DNA of 64,000 nucleotides, taken from NCBI GenBank assembly GCA_019058315.1, contig JAHPZH010000002.1:672001-736000 (forward strand), read 5' to 3'. Shown here piece after piece: positions 22,539-32,354 of the stretch. Below the pieces are notes generated by a model. The model was not told the DNA's origin and did no database searches. It saw nothing but the letters and a program-made list of their open reading frames with translations. This DNA comes from Candidatus Helarchaeota archaeon. GTDB lineage: Archaea; Asgardarchaeota; Lokiarchaeia; Helarchaeales; RDOG01. Both the position numbers and the translations under genes were made by a program. Within the stretch, counting starts at the first letter, position 1, and each line of letters starts with the position of its first letter.

Positions 22539-24338
22539 CTAGAATTTATATTTTTTGATTTTATTTTGAAGAAAAAGAGTTGTTGCTTTTAATGGATTTA
22601 CATGCAGGAAACGGGGTGGATAAATGCGAATTTCACAAGAATTTCTGGTGGGTAAATTTCCAGGACAATAAACTATTGCGTTTCCTACCTTCAATGTAAA
22701 AAGATCTTTTTTTAGCGTTGTAGGTATACTGACCGTGTCAATATCTGCTTTAGACCCTCGAAATAAAACTAACGAGTTTGATTGTTCGACCACGTTGGGA
22801 TTTAATTTTCTGAGACTTTGAGATGCAGATATCAATGAAACCATGTATTTGCGTCCTTCTGTTGCTAAAATTGTAAATTCTTCATTAATATATTTTCCAA
22901 AAATGTTCAAATACCCGCTTGCCCCATATTTATATGGAATTAATTCATGAGCTTCATCTATGATTACTACACTCTGCTTTTTTAAAAAATCTTCAAGCTT
23001 ATCCTTATTTGCAGCTTGTGTCTTATAATGTATGATTTTTGAGATTAAGGAGAACAATAAAATTGTTCGCAATTGTTCATATCCCCGTATTCGAGGCAAG
23101 TAGAAAAACACAATCTTTTTGTTTAAAATCTCTCTAATATTTGGTTCGCTCACCATGTCGAATATTTGAGCTGCTTGAAAATTTGATAATTCTCTAATTA
23201 GATTTTGTGCCGTGGGCTTGCTTGATTTTATTTCGTATGAACTATTTGAATTGAAAGTCCAAATAACTTGATTCTTATCCTCTTCATTACTTTCCTTGAT
23301 CCACTTGTAAAAATTTTCGAAGTTGAATTCGCTATTTATTTCCATATAGACTTTAAAAAGATTCTTAAGAACGTCTTGAGCTTTATTCGTGAGATTTGGT
23401 AAATAAATGCAGAGCTCTTCGCCTGTTTTGATATTTTTCGAATCTTTACCATAATCTTCCCACGGAAAAATCTTTAAAAAACCTTCAACATTAATAAAAA
23501 AGGGCTTGTAAAAACTCATGTCCCGAATCATGAGAATATCATCTAAACCCTCAAATTTTAAATTTAAATCTTGTAAAAGGAGTTTTGTGCTGGGATCGCT
23601 GTATTCTTCCGGCATCGCTTTCATTATTTGACAGAGATCACCTTGAGTATCGATTACTATTAGATTAGTATCCTCCTTTATGAGTTCTAGAATAATATTT
23701 TTTAATAAAATGCTCTTTCCTTGCCCTGTCATACCCCCAATAGCAAGGTGTTTTGAGATAAAAGATCTATTGAGTATATATTTAACTGGAATATCTTGGA
23801 TTCTCATAATGTCGTCTTTATCACATATTATTCCAAGTGAAATACCCTCAGATGGTGTGGGTAGCCCATTAATTTCAAGAATTTCTTCTGTTAATGCTTG
23901 AAATACTGGTGATCCAGGTGTCGGAAGGATTTTAATACGACGGAAATCTCGGAGCGAAACCCCATGCGAGTTCAGAAGGCGTACTTTGAGTAGTGCAGTC
24001 CCTTCCTTATAATCCGATTTGGTCATGATATAATCCTCTACTATACCAGAAAGAATCTCATTCCCTCCTTCTTCGTATACCAAGATATACTGTTCTAATT
24101 GTGGAAGATAATCTTCATTTTCTCTAGAAATAGCCACGTAAATGTTCTCAAAACCCTTAATTGGTGCTGTAACTGCACCCACTGGAGTCCGACCCTCAAA
24201 ACGCTCCGATTTCGTGGTAAATTTCTTCTTATCCACCCACATCTTTAACTTTTTCAATGCAATGTTCATATAATCTATGATCTCAGCATTATCATGATCT
24301 TCCAAATCAAAAACCTCTTTTTTAAATAGAAAATCCAC
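22539..24338 (-). CDS. herA: HerA/FtsK-family ATPase (HAS barrel plus P-loop)
   Basis: 'KHLAIGGMTGQGKS' Walker A, 'IVIDTQGD', 'IIDEAHE' Walker B, 'EGRKY', 'ASQ'; 'LPTPGSPVF' after the barrel. Confidence 0.85.
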   Translation of the reverse strand: MDFLFKKEVFDLEDHDNAEIIDYMNIALKKLKMWVDKKKFTTKSERFEGRTPVGAVTAPIKGFENIYVAISRENEDYLPQLEQYILVYEEGGNEILSGIVEDYIMTKSDYKEGTALLKVRLLNSHGVSLRDFRRIKILPTPGSPVFQALTEEILEINGLPTPSEGISLGIICDKDDIMRIQDIPVKYILNRSFISKHLAIGGMTGQGKSILLKNIILELIKEDTNLIVIDTQGDLCQIMKAMPEEYSDPSTKLLLQDLNLKFEGLDDILMIRDMSFYKPFFINVEGFLKIFPWEDYGKDSKNIKTGEELCIYLPNLTNKAQDVLKNLFKVYMEINSEFNFENFYKWIKESNEEDKNQVIWTFNSNSSYEIKSSKPTAQNLIRELSNFQAAQIFDMVSEPNIREILNKKIVFFYLPRIRGYEQLRTILLFSLISKIIHYKTQAANKDKLEDFLKKQSVVIIDEAHELIPYKYGASGYLNIFGKYINEEFTILATEGRKYMVSLISASQSLRKLNPNVVEQSNSLVLFRGSKADIDTVSIPTTLKKDLFTLKVGNAIVYCPGNLPTRNSCEIRIYPPRFLHVNPLKATTLFLQNKIKKYKF

Positions 24339-24464: not shown

Positions 24465-25289
24465 ATGCCTACAAAAAATATTGATATTTCTTATGAAAAT
24501 AAAGAGGACCAAATAATTTTGGGAAGTCTCCACACAATTTCTACGTTTTTATGTGCAAAGGGAAGTTTTAACCATAAACCTGCTCTTAAAAAAGTAGATC
24601 CCTCCATAGATTTTGATAAATTTGAAGTTTTAATTAAAAAAATCGAAAGAAGTATGATTGGATTTCGTAGAGGAATATTACCTATAGAGTTGAATTATAA
24701 GGATGAGAAGCAAAGAGAAACATTAAAACCTGTAATTAAAGAGATAGCAAAATTTATGGATAAAATTGTAAAATCTGGTCAGAAGGCATTTTTCAAAGAA
24801 GTTGATCGGATTTATGAACATATTATATGCTCTGTTCCCAATGCTATAGAGTATCTAGCGTTGGACCAAGAATTAGATAATCCAGAGGAAGTATATATTG
24901 TAAATATGGGTGATTTAGGTGTTTCTGGTCAATATGATTACCTTTATTCATTGTTAAGTCATTTACCACAATTTCCAAATTTACAAGCTATATTTCTCTA
25001 TGGTTGCTATTTGCGAAATTATGATATCCAAAATATCGAATTCAGCAAATTTCAGGACTTGCGATTATTAGATTTTTCTCAATGTTCTCTTGACTATATT
25101 CCAAAATCAATTTTAAAATGTAAGAAATTAGAAGATCTTAGTTTCTATGAAAACAAATTAAATACCCTTCCCGACGAATTAGGTGAATTAAAAACTTTAA
25201 AAAAATTAAATATTAAGATAAACTCGATTCCTAATCAAAAAATTCAAGAAATTCAAGCGAAGTTACCAAAATGTATTATTTCTTATTGA
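24465..25289 (+). CDS. Protein with C-terminal leucine-rich repeats
   Basis: 'LDYIPKSILKCKKLEDLSFYENKLNTLPDELGELKTLKKLNIKIN...IQAKLPKC'. Confidence 0.8.
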   Translation: MPTKNIDISYENKEDQIILGSLHTISTFLCAKGSFNHKPALKKVDPSIDFDKFEVLIKKIERSMIGFRRGILPIELNYKDEKQRETLKPVIKEIAKFMDKIVKSGQKAFFKEVDRIYEHIICSVPNAIEYLALDQELDNPEEVYIVNMGDLGVSGQYDYLYSLLSHLPQFPNLQAIFLYGCYLRNYDIQNIEFSKFQDLRLLDFSQCSLDYIPKSILKCKKLEDLSFYENKLNTLPDELGELKTLKKLNIKINSIPNQKIQEIQAKLPKCIISY

Positions 25290-25386: not shown

Positions 25387-26118
25387 TCAAGTTCTAAGCA
25401 TCCTGCCACAATATTCACATTGACATGGTGGTTTTTTTGGTAATGGTGCTTTACAAGCAGGACAGATCGAAATTTTAGGTCTTGATTTATATTTTTTCTT
25501 CCTTTTAAATTGATAACTTCTATAATTAGTATATACTGGTGAATGTGATTTAAAAGTTTGTTTTACTTTAAAAGTAATTATTAAGATGGCAAAGATTAAA
25601 ACGATACCAACAATAATTCCAATTAAAATAAACCTATTTTGTTTACGAGTAATAGAATCATCAAACAATTCTGGAAATAAAATAAACGGTAGTAATAAAT
25701 TGAACAATCTGGGGCTATTTACATGTCCCGAAATCGCTCTCCCTATGGTAGAAGTTGTCCCAAACTCAACAGGTTTGTCATTAACAAGAGCCCACACATC
25801 CAAATAACCAGCAGCTGTCATTGTAAAAGATAAATCACATGTTAATGCATCACCTTTAAAGTTTCGACTCCCAGTTCCGCTTCCAGAAAATCCTTCTATA
25901 GTGCAACTTCCACTCCAAGCAGTATTTGAATTGATAAAAACTATATAATCTGATTTTGCAAGATCTACACAAAATTGCATTGCCAAAAGTTTTAAAATAT
26001 CACTATCTTTTATCTCTGGATAATTTTGAACTGATATACTAATAATACTTACTGTTGAAACACTAATTATTGCTATTATCCCCAACGTTATATATTTCGA
26101 CCTTTTATTCATTAACAA
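25387..26118 (-). CDS. Membrane protein with C-terminal double zinc ribbon
   Basis: N- and C-proximal TM helices; 'CPACK...CEYCG'. Confidence 0.75.
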   Translation of the reverse strand: MLMNKRSKYITLGIIAIISVSTVSIISISVQNYPEIKDSDILKLLAMQFCVDLAKSDYIVFINSNTAWSGSCTIEGFSGSGTGSRNFKGDALTCDLSFTMTAAGYLDVWALVNDKPVEFGTTSTIGRAISGHVNSPRLFNLLLPFILFPELFDDSITRKQNRFILIGIIVGIVLIFAILIITFKVKQTFKSHSPVYTNYRSYQFKRKKKYKSRPKISICPACKAPLPKKPPCQCEYCGRMLRT

Positions 26119-26373
26119 CCCTCATTCAAATGTAAAATTTTTATTTAATTTAAAAATTTTGATTTTGGCAAGAATTAAATGAAATTTTTTTGAAATTTCA
26201 GTTAAATTAGATGAAGAGAGATACCATTATTCTTAATTTGAAATATATCAGTGGAAATAAAGATTTATAATAAAAATAAAATAGGTTAGATTAATTCAGC
26301 TCAATCTAACACAAAACCAAATAAATTGAATCAAATTCCAATAAAATTTCAGATTTCTTCGATTTTAAAATAT

Positions 26374-26628
26374 ACAAATTTAGCGTGATGAATTTGATCC
26401 CGTTGGGCTCGCCCATAGTCCTGAAATGGAAAAGCGAACAAGTGAGCCTTAATCATGATCATTAAGCTTTTTATCAATTAATTTTTAATCTTTAAAGCAT
26501 CCCAACAGCCTCAGTGTACCGGACTCGAACCGGTTGACCTAACAAGGGTTCCGGGTGTGCCTTTCAATTCCAAGATCCACGGTTTAATCTTCATTACTCA
26601 TAATAACTTGCTTATAAGCCAAATCTGC
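26374..26628 (-). ncRNA. Putative structured ncRNA / 3' element with a tRNA-like T-arm, directly after the DIP1984-like gene
   Basis: 11-bp terminal stem (26618-26628 with 26374-26384). T-arm ACCGG-TTCGAGT-CCGGT (26518-26534). Stem 26501-26508 with 26400-26407. GC content raised above other intergenic DNA. Confidence 0.7.
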
Positions 26629-27090
26629 TTATTTTTCCAATAATTCAGTTTCCCAATTTCTAGATTGAAGAATTTTATCGAGGTCTGCTTTCTTTTTTTC
26701 CATTTGGGCAATTAATTTAGCAATTTCATCTTGTTTTATTTGTGGGATGTATTCTACAGCTTGACCACCAAGATATACAGGACCTTTAGGTTTTAATGTT
26801 TCATATTGTGATAATTCCGACCGTAAATCTCCGATCATCAATATTAATTCCATTAATGAAATTTCCTTACCATCAACTTGAAGCTTAATGTTTGTATTCG
26901 TTCTATTTATCCTCACTTTAATGTCTCTTATTTCATCAATGAGATCATTAATCTCCTTGTTTACTTTATCAAATACGACATCAATGGTTTTATTCTCTAA
27001 TACATTAAATGTATCATATCTTAATCTATTTAATCGATTGAGTTTGCTTTGCATGATTTTTAACTCTTGTAGTGCTGCACCTAGCAACAT
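26629..27090 (-). CDS. DIP1984/septicolysin-like (DUF6847-type) coiled-coil protein
   Basis: Family pattern: M.L..AL ('MLLGAAL'), 'INRTN', 'ISLMELI', 'LDKILQSRNWETEL'. Start placed at ATG 27090, which has AAGGAG upstream; the ORF track extends to 27129. Confidence 0.8.
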   Translation of the reverse strand: MLLGAALQELKIMQSKLNRLNRLRYDTFNVLENKTIDVVFDKVNKEINDLIDEIRDIKVRINRTNTNIKLQVDGKEISLMELILMIGDLRSELSQYETLKPKGPVYLGGQAVEYIPQIKQDEIAKLIAQMEKKKADLDKILQSRNWETELLEK

Positions 27091-27455
27091 TTGATCCAAC
27101 TCCTTAAATCTTTCAATTTCGTAATTCATAAATTTAGTATATTGATAATCAAGGGTTATTTATAAATCTGTAGATTTTAATAGAAAGCTAATTTATTTGA
27201 ATCAAATGATATCATTAATTTGGTTCGTTAAATGAAAAATTGAACAATATATCGTCAATATCGGACATTTTAGTCTTCATCAATAATTAAAAATTATATT
27301 TTATCAGTATAAAATGTTTAAAAAGAATTTTCTTTTGAATTAAAAAATTATAAAGAATAAAAGAATTATAATATATAATATATTAATTGATTTTTTTTTA
27401 ATTATTAATTTTAAAATTTTTAATAATATTACAAATAATGTAGGAGGTAAAAACA

Positions 27456-31235: not shown

Positions 31236-32354
31236 TTAAACGAAAAAATTTCGAAAGTCATTTACTTTTTTCATTATTGAAGTAAACTGAGTCTGCTCCT
31301 CTTCTGATAGTTCCGAATAATAAATTTTTGATAATATAGATCCTAATCCCCCTGTTTCTAAACTAGCAATCTGCATAAATGTAAAATATCCATTTATTGG
31401 AAAAGCGGTATACAGAAATTTATTGGAGAATAAAAATGTTGCAAATAATTTCTCTTTAAAAATTTGCTCTGTAACATTTTTGGATGTGTTAATTAATGTT
31501 ATGCAATCAGGAGGTATTAAATCATCCTTTAATTGATAAAGAATATCGTTAGAAATTTGAATTATTCCCGATTTATTAAAAAAGATAAAAATCTCGTTAA
31601 TATTTGATGTTAAATTACTTGGTTTCTTAATGAGTTTTTTTATTTTCTGGGGAGATATCATAGATATATTTAATTGATTTAGTAATTCGTGTTTCCTTTC
31701 CTGAAATACAATAATTTTTTCTGTAACTTTAAAGAGAAGACATCGATTTTTTTCAGTAACAATTAATGTCATTAAAGATTCTTCATTCATAATATCCGAA
31801 ATATTTCTATTTACTGATTTTAATAGAACCATTGCTTGAAAGCTTAAGTCGTCTCTATCGATATATCCTCTAGATTTAATATATAGAATATCACCAGTAG
31901 TCTTTTCAAGAAATAGAAAACATTTAAATTCTTCATCGGAATCAAATACGCTATTAAATTTTAGATAATCATAATAACCATATAAACTAAGTATTTCCTC
32001 AACATCATTTTCAAAATTCCTAAATAAGGACATATTTCCACTATATTTTTCTATTTCATTTTGGTATTGCTTTAAAAAACGGTCTTTAAGTTCTTTTAAA
32101 ATTAAATTAATAAATTTCTCATGTTTCTTCTCTTTTGTTAAAATTACAAAAATTAAATCACTTTCTTCTTCAAAAATAAAAGTAGTCGGATCTAAGTGTA
32201 TCCTCTTAATTTCCTCACCACGTTCTGATTTAGCAAACATATGAAATGCTGACAAAAATCCAGATATTAGGCCAAAATCTGTCTCCTCTTTTTCTTTCTG
32301 CCAGTTATAAAGAGGAACTCCCGAAGTATTAAGTATTAAAAATTGGTTAATCAT
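31236..32354 (-). CDS. Longin-domain protein (N-terminal longin plus further longin/roadblock-like modules)
   Basis: 'FLILNTSGVPLYNW...LISGFLSAFHMFAKS...LKDRFLKQY...YSGNMSLFRNF'. Confidence 0.75.
   Translation of the reverse strand: MINQFLILNTSGVPLYNWQKEKEETDFGLISGFLSAFHMFAKSERGEEIKRIHLDPTTFIFEEESDLIFVILTKEKKHEKFINLILKELKDRFLKQYQNEIEKYSGNMSLFRNFENDVEEILSLYGYYDYLKFNSVFDSDEEFKCFLFLEKTTGDILYIKSRGYIDRDDLSFQAMVLLKSVNRNISDIMNEESLMTLIVTEKNRCLLFKVTEKIIVFQERKHELLNQLNISMISPQKIKKLIKKPSNLTSNINEIFIFFNKSGIIQISNDILYQLKDDLIPPDCITLINTSKNVTEQIFKEKLFATFLFSNKFLYTAFPINGYFTFMQIASLETGGLGSILSKIYYSELSEEEQTQFTSIMKKVNDFRNFFV

What the first reader, a model, noticed from the sequence alone, without database searches (positions are those of the whole stretch)
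26374..27090. DIP1984/septicolysin-like gene coupled to a ~255-nt structured RNA: candidate new protein-ncRNA system
Seen in sequence (minus strand): the first 11 nt after the TAA stop (GCAGAUUUGGC, 26628-26618) pair with GCUAAAUUUGU (26384-26374). This gives 11 contiguous pairs with 3 G-U, which work better on this strand than on the plus strand and close a ~255-nt domain. Inside are a perfect T-arm, an 8-bp stem CUGUUGGG/CCCAACGG (26508-26501 with 26407-26400), a hairpin GGCUCACUUGU...AUGGGCGAGCC and a periodic AU-rich segment. The region is richer in GC than other intergenic DNA and has no ORF of 60 aa or more. Established knowledge: DIP1984/DUF6847 proteins are small helical proteins of unclear function. 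Inference: the RNA is co-transcribed with the gene and is the ligand or scaffold of the protein (an RNP), or a processed RNA that regulates it.
Basis: partly seen in the sequence, partly recalled or inferred. Interest (0 to 1): 0.92.

Follow-up and report, generated by a model that had tools for sequence, protein, structure and literature searches.

The report
Spliced-out partner RNA of DUF6847 gene
Right behind a small gene of unknown function, this Asgard archaeon encodes a conserved folded RNA of about 190 bases that matches no catalogued RNA family, and its base carries the cut signal of the tRNA-splicing enzyme, so it is probably cut out of the messenger's tail, closed into a ring, and used as the protein's partner.

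Summary
The flagged stretch is real. All 19 non-redundant loci of close DUF6847/DIP1984 homologues (60-75% identity, Asgard MAGs and sediment contigs) carry the same structured RNA, starting 0-17 nt after the stop codon. A covariance model finds full-length copies in 6 of 151 genomes of the class, each next to such a gene. Covariation supports the fold: 89% of cells paired, 21 of 34 pairs with double changes, 0 of 500 shuffles as good. Rfam, ARAGORN and the tRNA model find nothing.

Its two inner stems conflict with covarying helices and are not supported.

New here: in all 21 full-length copies the base of the RNA is a canonical bulge-helix-bulge motif (helix, 3-nt bulge, 4-bp helix, 3-nt bulge, helix). 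It has the same topology as this genome's own tRNA introns. This predicts excision of window 26583-26394 (190 nt) from the mRNA 3' UTR and circularisation.

The core is a loop of about 8 heptads (nGnUnAn). It is also detectable behind distant homologues. It is the likely platform for the protein, which is predicted to dimerise.

Binding, cleavage and function are inferred, not shown. This scan has already noted DUF6847-plus-RNA pairs on other DNA (bacteria, phages, archaea). I found no published description.

The parts
26629..27090 (-). DUF6847/DIP1984-family gene, 153 aa, stop codon TAA at 26631-26629. The longer ORF from ATG 27129 (166 aa) is probably not used.
   Evidence: Pfam PF20935 E 4e-10. 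Profile match to PDB 3KDQ over the full length, E 1.7e-4. The model has pLDDT 95 and matches 3KDQ at TM 0.82, with no other fold match. Homologues are 152 aa and begin at the residue equivalent to M14.
27100..27105 (-). AAGGAG, a Shine-Dalgarno-like element 9 nt upstream of ATG 27090.
   Evidence: Read from the sequence. It supports the 27090 start. Inference.
26618..26628 (-). It is a window-specific outward extension of the outer helix P1.
   Evidence: It pairs with 26384-26374.
26590..26597 (-). P1 5' strand (GUAAUGAA), the outer helix of the bulge-helix-bulge motif. It would stay in the spliced mRNA.
26586..26589 (-). Central 4-bp helix H, 5' strand (GAUU).
   Evidence: 100% of cells paired in 21 copies, and 3 of 4 pairs show double changes.
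26583..26585 (-). 5' bulge (AAA). The predicted cut lies after its 2nd nt, between 26584 and 26583.
   Evidence: The bulge is exactly 3 nt in all 21 copies. The cut position follows this genome's own tRNA introns.
26394..26583 (-). Predicted excised RNA, 190 nt, probably circularised: P2, P3, variable hairpin, T-arm, P5 with the heptad loop, and P4.
   Evidence: Bulge-helix-bulge geometry. EndA and RtcB genes are present in the genome. Excision itself is inferred.
26558..26577 (-). P3 5' strand. P3 is a long helix (about 17-22 bp) that is hypervariable in sequence.
   Evidence: Its own strands pair at -19.2 kcal/mol against a mean of -14.9 with foreign strands. Rank is 1-3 of 19 in nearly all loci. 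13 of 17 pairs show double changes.
26518..26534 (-). T-arm-like hairpin: 5-bp stem and loop UUCGAGU.
   Evidence: 17-nt match to a T-arm model segment. The T-loop consensus is present in 18 of 22 copies.
26442..26501 (-). P5 (26501-26496 with 26448-26444) closing a loop of about 8 heptads of the form nGnUnAn.
   Evidence: G.U.A recurs at 7-nt steps in the family. These are the invariant columns of the alignment. This part of model R1 also matches behind distant homologues at E 5.5e-12 to 8e-5.
26417..26440 (-). P3 3' strand.
26404..26416 (-). P4 hairpin (GGGC GA GCCC).
   Evidence: A hairpin of variable sequence sits at this place in most copies.
26393..26403 (-). P2 3' strand ACGG (26403-26400), H 3' strand GAUC (26399-26396) and 3' bulge AAA (26395-26393). 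The predicted cut lies between 26394 and 26393.
26374..26392 (-).
26367..26370 (-). UUUU run just after the structure, a possible archaeal termination signal.
   Evidence: Read from the sequence. Longer T runs follow the RNA in several homologous loci. Inference.

Best explanation
The locus is a self-contained two-part module: a DUF6847/DIP1984-family gene and its partner RNA, which lies in the 3' untranslated part of the same transcript.

The base of the RNA forms a canonical archaeal bulge-helix-bulge motif. The tRNA-splicing endonuclease (EndA) should therefore cut in both 3-nt bulges, and RtcB should join the ends. The products would be a 190-nt, probably circular RNA (window 26583-26394) and a spliced mRNA tail that ends in a hairpin.

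The released RNA has a long stalk (P3) and a junction carrying a variable hairpin and a tRNA-like T-arm. It also has a closed loop of about 56 nt made of about eight heptads (nGnUnAn).

I propose that several copies of the protein bind this periodic loop, one unit or pair of units per subunit or dimer. The protein is predicted to form a two-fold symmetric dimer. The result would be a ribonucleoprotein particle whose tRNA-like elbow addresses tRNA-recognising factors, in a way loosely comparable to Ro60 with Y RNA.

Shown here: conservation, covariation, linkage to the gene, the bulge-helix-bulge geometry, and the presence of EndA and RtcB genes. Inferred: co-transcription, cleavage, circularisation and protein binding. 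Guessed: the cellular role.
For: Linkage:
- All 19 non-redundant loci of close homologues have the RNA directly after the stop codon.
- Model R1 finds full-length copies in 6 of 151 genomes of the class, each adjacent to a close homologue, and finds one copy in the window's own genome.
- No other neighbouring gene is conserved.

Structure:
- Each sequence folds on its own into the same architecture.
- The strands of P1 and P3 pair far better with their own partner than with partners from other loci.
- On the model alignment, 89.2% of cells are paired and 21 of 34 pairs show double changes. None of 500 shuffles does as well, and slid controls reach only 29-56%.

Bulge-helix-bulge motif:
- All 21 full-length copies have the 3-nt / 4-bp / 3-nt geometry with flanking helices and no length variation, although other loops vary widely.
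- Topology and cut positions match this genome's tRNA-Met and tRNA-Ile introns.
- The motif definition, and the route from EndA cleavage through ligation to circular RNA, come from PMC7714728 and PMC12558985.
- The genome has two EndA-family genes and RtcB.
- The outer helix begins 0-17 nt after the stop codon.

Heptads:
- G.U.A recurs at strict 7-nt steps, 7-8 units, in most copies.
- The array part of R1 matches behind homologues of only 33-38% identity and behind one from another class of the phylum, at E 5.5e-12 to 8e-5.

Protein:
- The fold equals 3KDQ.
- The homo-oligomer prediction scored 0.74, best of 3 controls 0.01. That mark was reached by 20 of 30 proteins solved as pairs and 1 of 23 solved as single chains. 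The runs share at least 63% of contacts, and partner pLDDT is at least 86. The contacts are two-fold symmetric. Because 3KDQ is a solved relative with four chains, this pass may reflect likeness rather than independent evidence.
Against: - No RNA data exist for this organism here, so transcription past the stop codon, cleavage and a circular junction are all unobserved.
- A minimal bulge-helix-bulge motif arises by chance in 145 of 300 shuffles of the region, and a stricter one in 10 of 300. The argument therefore rests on conservation, not on this one sequence.
- The RNAs behind distant homologues have no such motif, so this processing route is clade-specific.
- The protein is not basic: pI 6.4, family median 6.1. 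It does have about ten conserved basic positions.
- The window's own heptad array is less regular than most, with spacings of 15, 8, 7, 6 and 7.
- 4 of 22 copies lack the T-loop consensus.
- Nothing here tests binding between protein and RNA.
Confidence: 0.6

Rival explanations
1. The element is a cis-acting 3' UTR device rather than a free partner RNA. The protein, or another factor, binds the heptad loop on its own mRNA to autoregulate. Splicing at the bulge-helix-bulge motif merely remodels the mRNA tail, and the excised piece is degraded.
For: The RNA is always in cis, immediately after the stop codon. Splicing would leave a stable hairpin at the mRNA 3' end. A bulge-helix-bulge intron in an mRNA untranslated region is known in Haloferax (PMC7714728).
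Against: A 190-nt architecture with a covarying 17-22-bp stalk, a T-arm and extra hairpins is far more than an operator needs. One locus has two tandem RNA copies behind one gene (L040).
Confidence: 0.15
2. The pair is a toxin-antitoxin-like or defence module, related in logic to type III systems. The RNA, with its repeated short motifs, neutralises or senses through the protein. The patchy distribution reflects horizontal spread.
For: It is a self-contained two-gene module in variable neighbourhoods and is present in a small minority of related genomes (12 of 151). Distant members lie on contigs with Bro-N and ParA genes or with a tRNA array, which suggests mobile elements or viruses. The RNA carries repeated motifs.
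Against: There is no match of note in PADLOC for the protein; the only hits are weak coiled-coil matches. The order is protein then RNA, with no terminator between them. The repeats are 7 nt, not about 36 nt. The fold is not that of known type III toxins. The window's neighbourhood is ordinary metabolism.
Confidence: 0.1
3. The RNA is an independent non-coding RNA gene with its own promoter inside the end of the coding region. It is only syntenic with DUF6847 and does not interact with the protein.
For: Promoters were not mapped, and AT-rich coding ends could hide a TATA box.
Against: Co-occurrence is perfect, with no orphan full-length copy in 151 genomes. Different protein clades have different RNA versions that share the heptad core. 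In some loci the outer helix overlaps the stop codon.
Confidence: 0.05
4. It is a decayed or multiply interrupted tRNA gene unrelated to the protein.
For: It has a perfect T-arm. This genome's tRNAs are intron-rich and poorly detected by standard tools.
Against: ARAGORN and RF00005 find nothing here. No acceptor stem or anticodon arm can be built. 4 of 22 copies lack the T-loop consensus at that position, and in at least three of them another hairpin takes its place. The conserved core is the heptad loop, which no tRNA has.
Confidence: 0.02

Closest known systems
Archaeal bulge-helix-bulge substrates of the splicing endonuclease: tRNA introns, pre-rRNA spacers, the Cbf5 mRNA intron and the HVO_1309 5' UTR intron (PMC7714728)
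   Same: The geometry is identical: helix, 3-nt bulge, 4-bp helix, 3-nt bulge, helix. The topology matches this genome's own tRNA introns. The expected products are a circular excised RNA and ligated flanks.
   Different: The excised piece here is a large, conserved, structured RNA in the 3' UTR of a protein gene and appears to be the functional product. I found no report of such a case. Cleavage was not observed here.
Ro60 (Rsr) with bacterial Y RNAs (YrlA, Yrn1)
   Same: A protein gene is coupled to an adjacent structured RNA whose ends pair and which carries a tRNA-like T-arm module.
   Different: The genome has no TROVE-domain protein, and no Rfam Y RNA family matches. The protein fold is unrelated. 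The heptad loop has no counterpart in Y RNA.
Periodic protein-binding RNA arrays: TRAP with 11 (G/U)AG triplets, CsrA with CsrB/RsmZ
   Same: A row of short, evenly spaced sequence motifs in single-stranded RNA suggests one site per subunit of an oligomeric protein.
   Different: The period is 7 nt with the pattern nGnUnAn, and the array is closed into a loop by a helix. The protein family is unrelated, and binding has not been tested.
DIP1984 family / Pfam DUF6847 (crystal structure 3KDQ, Corynebacterium diphtheriae), often labelled 'septicolysin'
   Same: The window's protein matches in sequence profile and in fold.
   Different: The family has no assigned function. The papers that use the label treat it only as an annotation on plasmids and do not mention an RNA.
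Type III toxin-antitoxin systems (ToxIN)
   Same: A small protein is encoded with a repetitive RNA in one transcription unit, and the distribution is patchy.
   Different: In ToxIN the RNA precedes the toxin and consists of tandem units of about 36 nt. Here a complex fold with 7-nt units follows the gene.

Membership tests
DIP1984 / DUF6847 protein family | Match to Pfam PF20935 above its gathering score | tested here: met
   40.2 bits against a cut-off of 27, E 4.2e-10, covering model positions 4-141 of 141.
DIP1984 / DUF6847 protein family | Match to NCBIfam NF038048 above its curated cut-off | tested here: not met
   51.2 bits against a cut-off of 70. The window's protein is a divergent archaeal branch.
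DIP1984 / DUF6847 protein family | Fold of the solved member 3KDQ | tested here: met
   The model has pLDDT 95.4 and matches 3KDQ at TM 0.82, E 1.5e-6. No other chain scores below E 0.8.
Archaeal bulge-helix-bulge (EndA) substrate | 4-bp helix flanked by two 3-nt bulges on opposite strands, each 3' of a strand of that helix | tested here: met
   Present in all 21 full-length copies. In the window: 26589-26586 with 26399-26396, bulges 26585-26583 and 26395-26393. The layout matches tRNA-Met and tRNA-Ile of this genome.
Archaeal bulge-helix-bulge (EndA) substrate | Flanking outer and inner helices | tested here: met
   The outer helix has at least 3 contiguous pairs next to the bulge in 18 of 21 copies, with one mismatch in L043, L050 and L051. 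The inner helix has at least 3 pairs in 20 of 21, with L040 copy 1 mismatched at the third pair. Both vary in sequence.
Archaeal bulge-helix-bulge (EndA) substrate | Splicing endonuclease and RNA ligase encoded by the organism | tested here: met
   Two PF01974 genes (103 and 78 bits) and one RtcB gene (582 bits) in the genome.
Archaeal bulge-helix-bulge (EndA) substrate | Observed cleavage and ligated (circular) junction | not testable with these tools
   No RNA run is listed as holding this stretch.
tRNA | Cloverleaf recognised by ARAGORN or the Rfam tRNA model | tested here: not met
   ARAGORN finds no gene in the window. RF00005 gives no hit at this place even at E up to 10. Only the 17-nt T-arm matches a model segment.
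Y RNA with Ro60 | TROVE-domain protein in the genome and a match to an Rfam Y RNA family | tested here: not met
   No PF05731 match in the genome, which is 94% complete. No Rfam match.
Type III toxin-antitoxin | Tandem repeats of about 36 nt upstream of the toxin gene | tested here: not met
   Tandem Repeats Finder finds nothing. The RNA lies downstream of the gene and its units are 7 nt.
Any Rfam family | Score at or above a family's gathering threshold | tested here: not met
   The window gives none. At E up to 10 the local search gives only chance-level fragments. In 19 related loci only neighbouring tRNAs match.

The most novel reading that the evidence does not exclude
DUF6847 proteins and their heptad-loop RNAs form a widespread, undescribed ribonucleoprotein found in archaea, bacteria and viruses. 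In one Asgard clade, the RNA has been placed inside a tRNA-intron-type splice signal in the messenger's tail. The host tRNA-splicing machinery then makes a stable circular RNA with a tRNA-like elbow. This would be the first functional, protein-partnered RNA made as a 3' UTR 'intron'.
Probability: 0.45. Interest if true: 0.9.

Novelty: categorically new. Interest (0 to 1): 0.82.

Why it matters
A domain of unknown function with hundreds of sequence clusters (754 at 50% identity) would gain a defining feature: an obligate structured RNA partner with a periodic binding platform.

In Asgard archaea, the RNA also appears to be produced by the tRNA-splicing enzymes from an mRNA tail. That would extend the known uses of that machinery beyond tRNA, rRNA and rare mRNA introns to the making of a stand-alone, probably circular, functional RNA.

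Both claims can be tested directly with recombinant components.

Tried and rejected
- Rfam at gathering and permissive thresholds, ARAGORN and the Rfam tRNA model: no known family.
- Reading the RNA as a tRNA with several introns, or as a split or permuted tRNA: no acceptor or anticodon arm could be built, and the T-arm position is not always a T-arm.
- blastn of the RNA against 40 relatives: only AT-rich chance matches. Homologues were reached through the protein instead.
- First metagenome scan with the single protein: nothing. The alignment query worked.
- tblastn of the archaeal protein against the phage and plasmid collections: no match. I therefore could not verify the phage and plasmid occurrences reported by earlier notes of this scan.
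- Sequencing-run search: no RNA holder listed.
- K-turn reading of the basal internal loops: rejected, because there are no tandem G.A pairs after the bulge.
- HEPN-type RNase reading of the helical protein: rejected, because the protein has no histidine.
- A conserved operon partner: none found.
- Tandem Repeats Finder does not see the degenerate heptads.
- A second DUF6847 gene in this genome, suggested by another first-reader note: not found with PF20935 at E up to 1.

Full report
WHAT IS THERE. The window is contig C5:672001-736000 of a 5.8-Mb, roughly 30% GC genome. Relatives of the flagged gene come from Helarchaeota and Promethearchaeota MAGs and from sediment metagenomes, so this is an Asgard archaeon. 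On the minus strand, ORF 26629-27129 is a DUF6847 protein (Pfam E 4e-10). All homologues are about 152 aa and begin at the residue equivalent to M14. An AAGGAG lies 9 nt upstream of that ATG. The gene is therefore 26629-27090. A profile of the clade matches PDB 3KDQ (DIP1984 of Corynebacterium diphtheriae) over the full length (E 1.7e-4). A confident model (pLDDT 95) matches only that structure (TM 0.82).

CHECK OF THE OBSERVATION. The spacer behind the gene has 35-50% GC, against 9-21% in other spacers. It holds no ORF of 60 aa or more. It folds better than shuffles only on the minus strand (z -2.48 against +0.55). The 11-bp terminal pairing, the T-arm and a periodic AU-rich stretch are all present. 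ARAGORN, the Rfam tRNA model and all of Rfam find nothing.

COMPARATIVE EVIDENCE.
- The protein occurs in 12 of 151 genomes sampled from the class. Scans of genome and metagenome contigs added more loci.
- All 19 non-redundant loci of close homologues (60-75% identity) carry the same RNA directly behind the stop codon.
- A covariance model built from them (R1) finds one copy in the window's genome. It finds full-length copies in 6 of the 151 genomes, each beside such a gene. A seventh genome's locus ends at the contig edge.
- No other neighbouring gene is conserved, so gene plus RNA is a self-contained module. The window's neighbourhood is ordinary: an aldehyde:ferredoxin oxidoreductase, an ADP-forming acyl-CoA synthetase, a HerA-like ATPase and a longin-domain protein.

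STRUCTURE. Every sequence folds on its own into the same plan. In 5' to 3' order the elements are:
- outer helix P1;
- a 4-bp helix H;
- inner helix P2;
- the 5' strand of a long helix P3;
- a variable hairpin;
- a T-arm-like hairpin;
- helix P5 closing an AU-rich loop;
- the 3' strand of P3;
- hairpin P4;
- the 3' strands of P2, H and P1;
- often an oligo-T run.

P1 and P3 differ completely in sequence between loci, yet each 5' strand pairs best with its own 3' strand. Ranks are 1-3 of 19 in nearly all loci, and the ties are near-identical relatives. On the model-based alignment, 89.2% of cells are paired and 21 of 34 pairs show changes on both sides. None of 500 shuffles reaches the observed values, and sliding the partners drops pairing to 29-56%.

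THE BULGE-HELIX-BULGE MOTIF. In all 21 full-length copies the base of the RNA reads as follows: outer helix, a 3-nt bulge on the 3' strand, exactly 4 bp, a 3-nt bulge on the 5' strand, inner helix. There is no length variation at all, while other loops vary by tens of nucleotides. The 4-bp helix is 100% paired, and 3 of its 4 pairs show double changes. [quoted passage not shown] I checked the topology on this genome's own tRNA-Met and tRNA-Ile introns. They show the same order of elements, with cuts after the second bulge nucleotide. The genome encodes two EndA-family proteins and RtcB. In archaea the excised piece is normally circularised (PMC7714728, PMC12558985).

For the window this predicts a 190-nt RNA, 26583-26394, and an mRNA tail closed by the P1 hairpin. 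The outer helix starts 0-17 nt after the stop codon, so the spacer has no room for a promoter. That makes co-transcription the economical reading. One caution applies. A minimal motif of this kind appears in 145 of 300 shuffles of the region, and a stricter one in 10 of 300. The case therefore rests on conservation at a fixed place, not on the single sequence. Cleavage itself is not observed.

THE HEPTAD LOOP. Between the two strands of P5 lie about 56 nt in which G.U.A recurs at strict 7-nt steps, 7-8 units in most copies. The window's own array has small shifts. These are the invariant columns of the alignment. This part of the model also matches behind homologues of only 33-38% identity from other sources, and behind one from another class of the phylum (E 5.5e-12 to 8e-5). 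Those RNAs also have a terminal stem, and in one case a T-arm, but no bulge-helix-bulge motif. The heptad loop is thus the conserved core of the RNA family, and the splice signal is a clade-specific way of releasing it.

THE PROTEIN AS PARTNER. Binding is inferred from four observations:
- strict co-occurrence of gene and RNA;
- RNA versions that track protein clades;
- a periodic array suited to a multi-subunit binder;
- a predicted two-fold symmetric homodimer. The score was 0.74, best of 3 controls 0.01. That mark was reached by 20 of 30 proteins solved as pairs and 1 of 23 solved as single chains. At least 63% of contacts were shared between runs, and partner pLDDT was at least 86. The solved relative 3KDQ has four chains, so this pass may be likeness rather than independent evidence.

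Against a simple nucleic-acid binder, the protein is near neutral (pI 6.4), although about ten basic positions are conserved.

WHAT IT IS NOT.
- It is not a tRNA. There is no cloverleaf, and 4 of 22 copies lack the T-loop consensus at that position, with another hairpin taking its place in at least three of them.
- It is not a Y RNA system, because the genome has no TROVE protein.
- It is not a type III antitoxin array.
- It matches no PADLOC system of note.

LITERATURE AND EARLIER NOTES. Full-text searches for DUF6847, DIP1984 and 'septicolysin' return only annotation labels, with no RNA partner mentioned. Earlier notes of this scan report DUF6847-plus-RNA pairs in bacteria, phages and another archaeal group. 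One note reports a head-to-tail joined RNA for a phage version. My own data confirm the pairing and the heptads for this clade and for several distant homologues. I could not check the phage and plasmid cases or any circular form.

VERDICT. This is a real, conserved, uncatalogued structured RNA coupled to a DUF6847 gene. In this Asgard clade it is very probably released from the mRNA tail by the tRNA-splicing machinery. Its role as a protein-bound particle is the best-supported reading but remains untested.

Noticed in passing
L040:2128-2347 and L040:2429-2648: One sediment contig carries two tandem copies of the RNA behind a single DUF6847 gene. Each copy has its own bulge-helix-bulge base. 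The second copy lacks the T-loop.
   Followed up: partly
L076:21-1299: A distant DUF6847 gene (38% identity) lies about 1.2 kb downstream of an array of 11 tRNA genes, a layout typical of large viruses. In L029 a tRNA gene sits directly upstream of the DUF6847 gene.
   Followed up: no
G000 C3:627500-631800 (outside the window): A dense array of about 20 tRNA genes, many with introns. Across the whole genome ARAGORN and the Rfam tRNA model find only about 37-42 tRNAs, and several hits cover only positions 8-63. Many tRNA genes here are probably interrupted at unusual places.
   Followed up: no
window 22539-24338 (-): A HerA-like ATPase (Pfam DUF87; PADLOC mad8/HerA models, E 6e-20). It lies next to a leucine-rich-repeat protein (24465-25289, +) and a membrane protein with a C-terminal Cys-rich tail (25387-26118, -). 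This may be a defence-type cluster two genes away from the module.
   Followed up: partly
window 31236-32354 (-): A protein with a FUZ/MON1/HPS1-type longin domain, a eukaryote-like signature protein of Asgard archaea.
   Followed up: no
control genomes: Deinococcus radiodurans is the only one of 14 control genomes with a DUF6847 match above the cut-off. It is also one of two with a TROVE (Ro60) protein. Whether the two systems are linked there was not examined.
   Followed up: no
L071, L073, L076 (about 5-25 nt after the stop codon); L028, L029, L031, L078: In the other RNA types, a small conserved hairpin sits between the stop codon and the partner RNA (for example GCUUAUCUG...CAGAUAAG or CUCAUCUA...UAGAUGAG). 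In L071, L073 and L076, a conserved UAA/UUUU internal loop occupies the place of the bulge-helix-bulge motif.
   Followed up: no
L053:3001-3483: The RNA is intact (195 bits with R1), but the protein match upstream is fragmentary. The gene may be broken while its RNA is retained.
   Followed up: no
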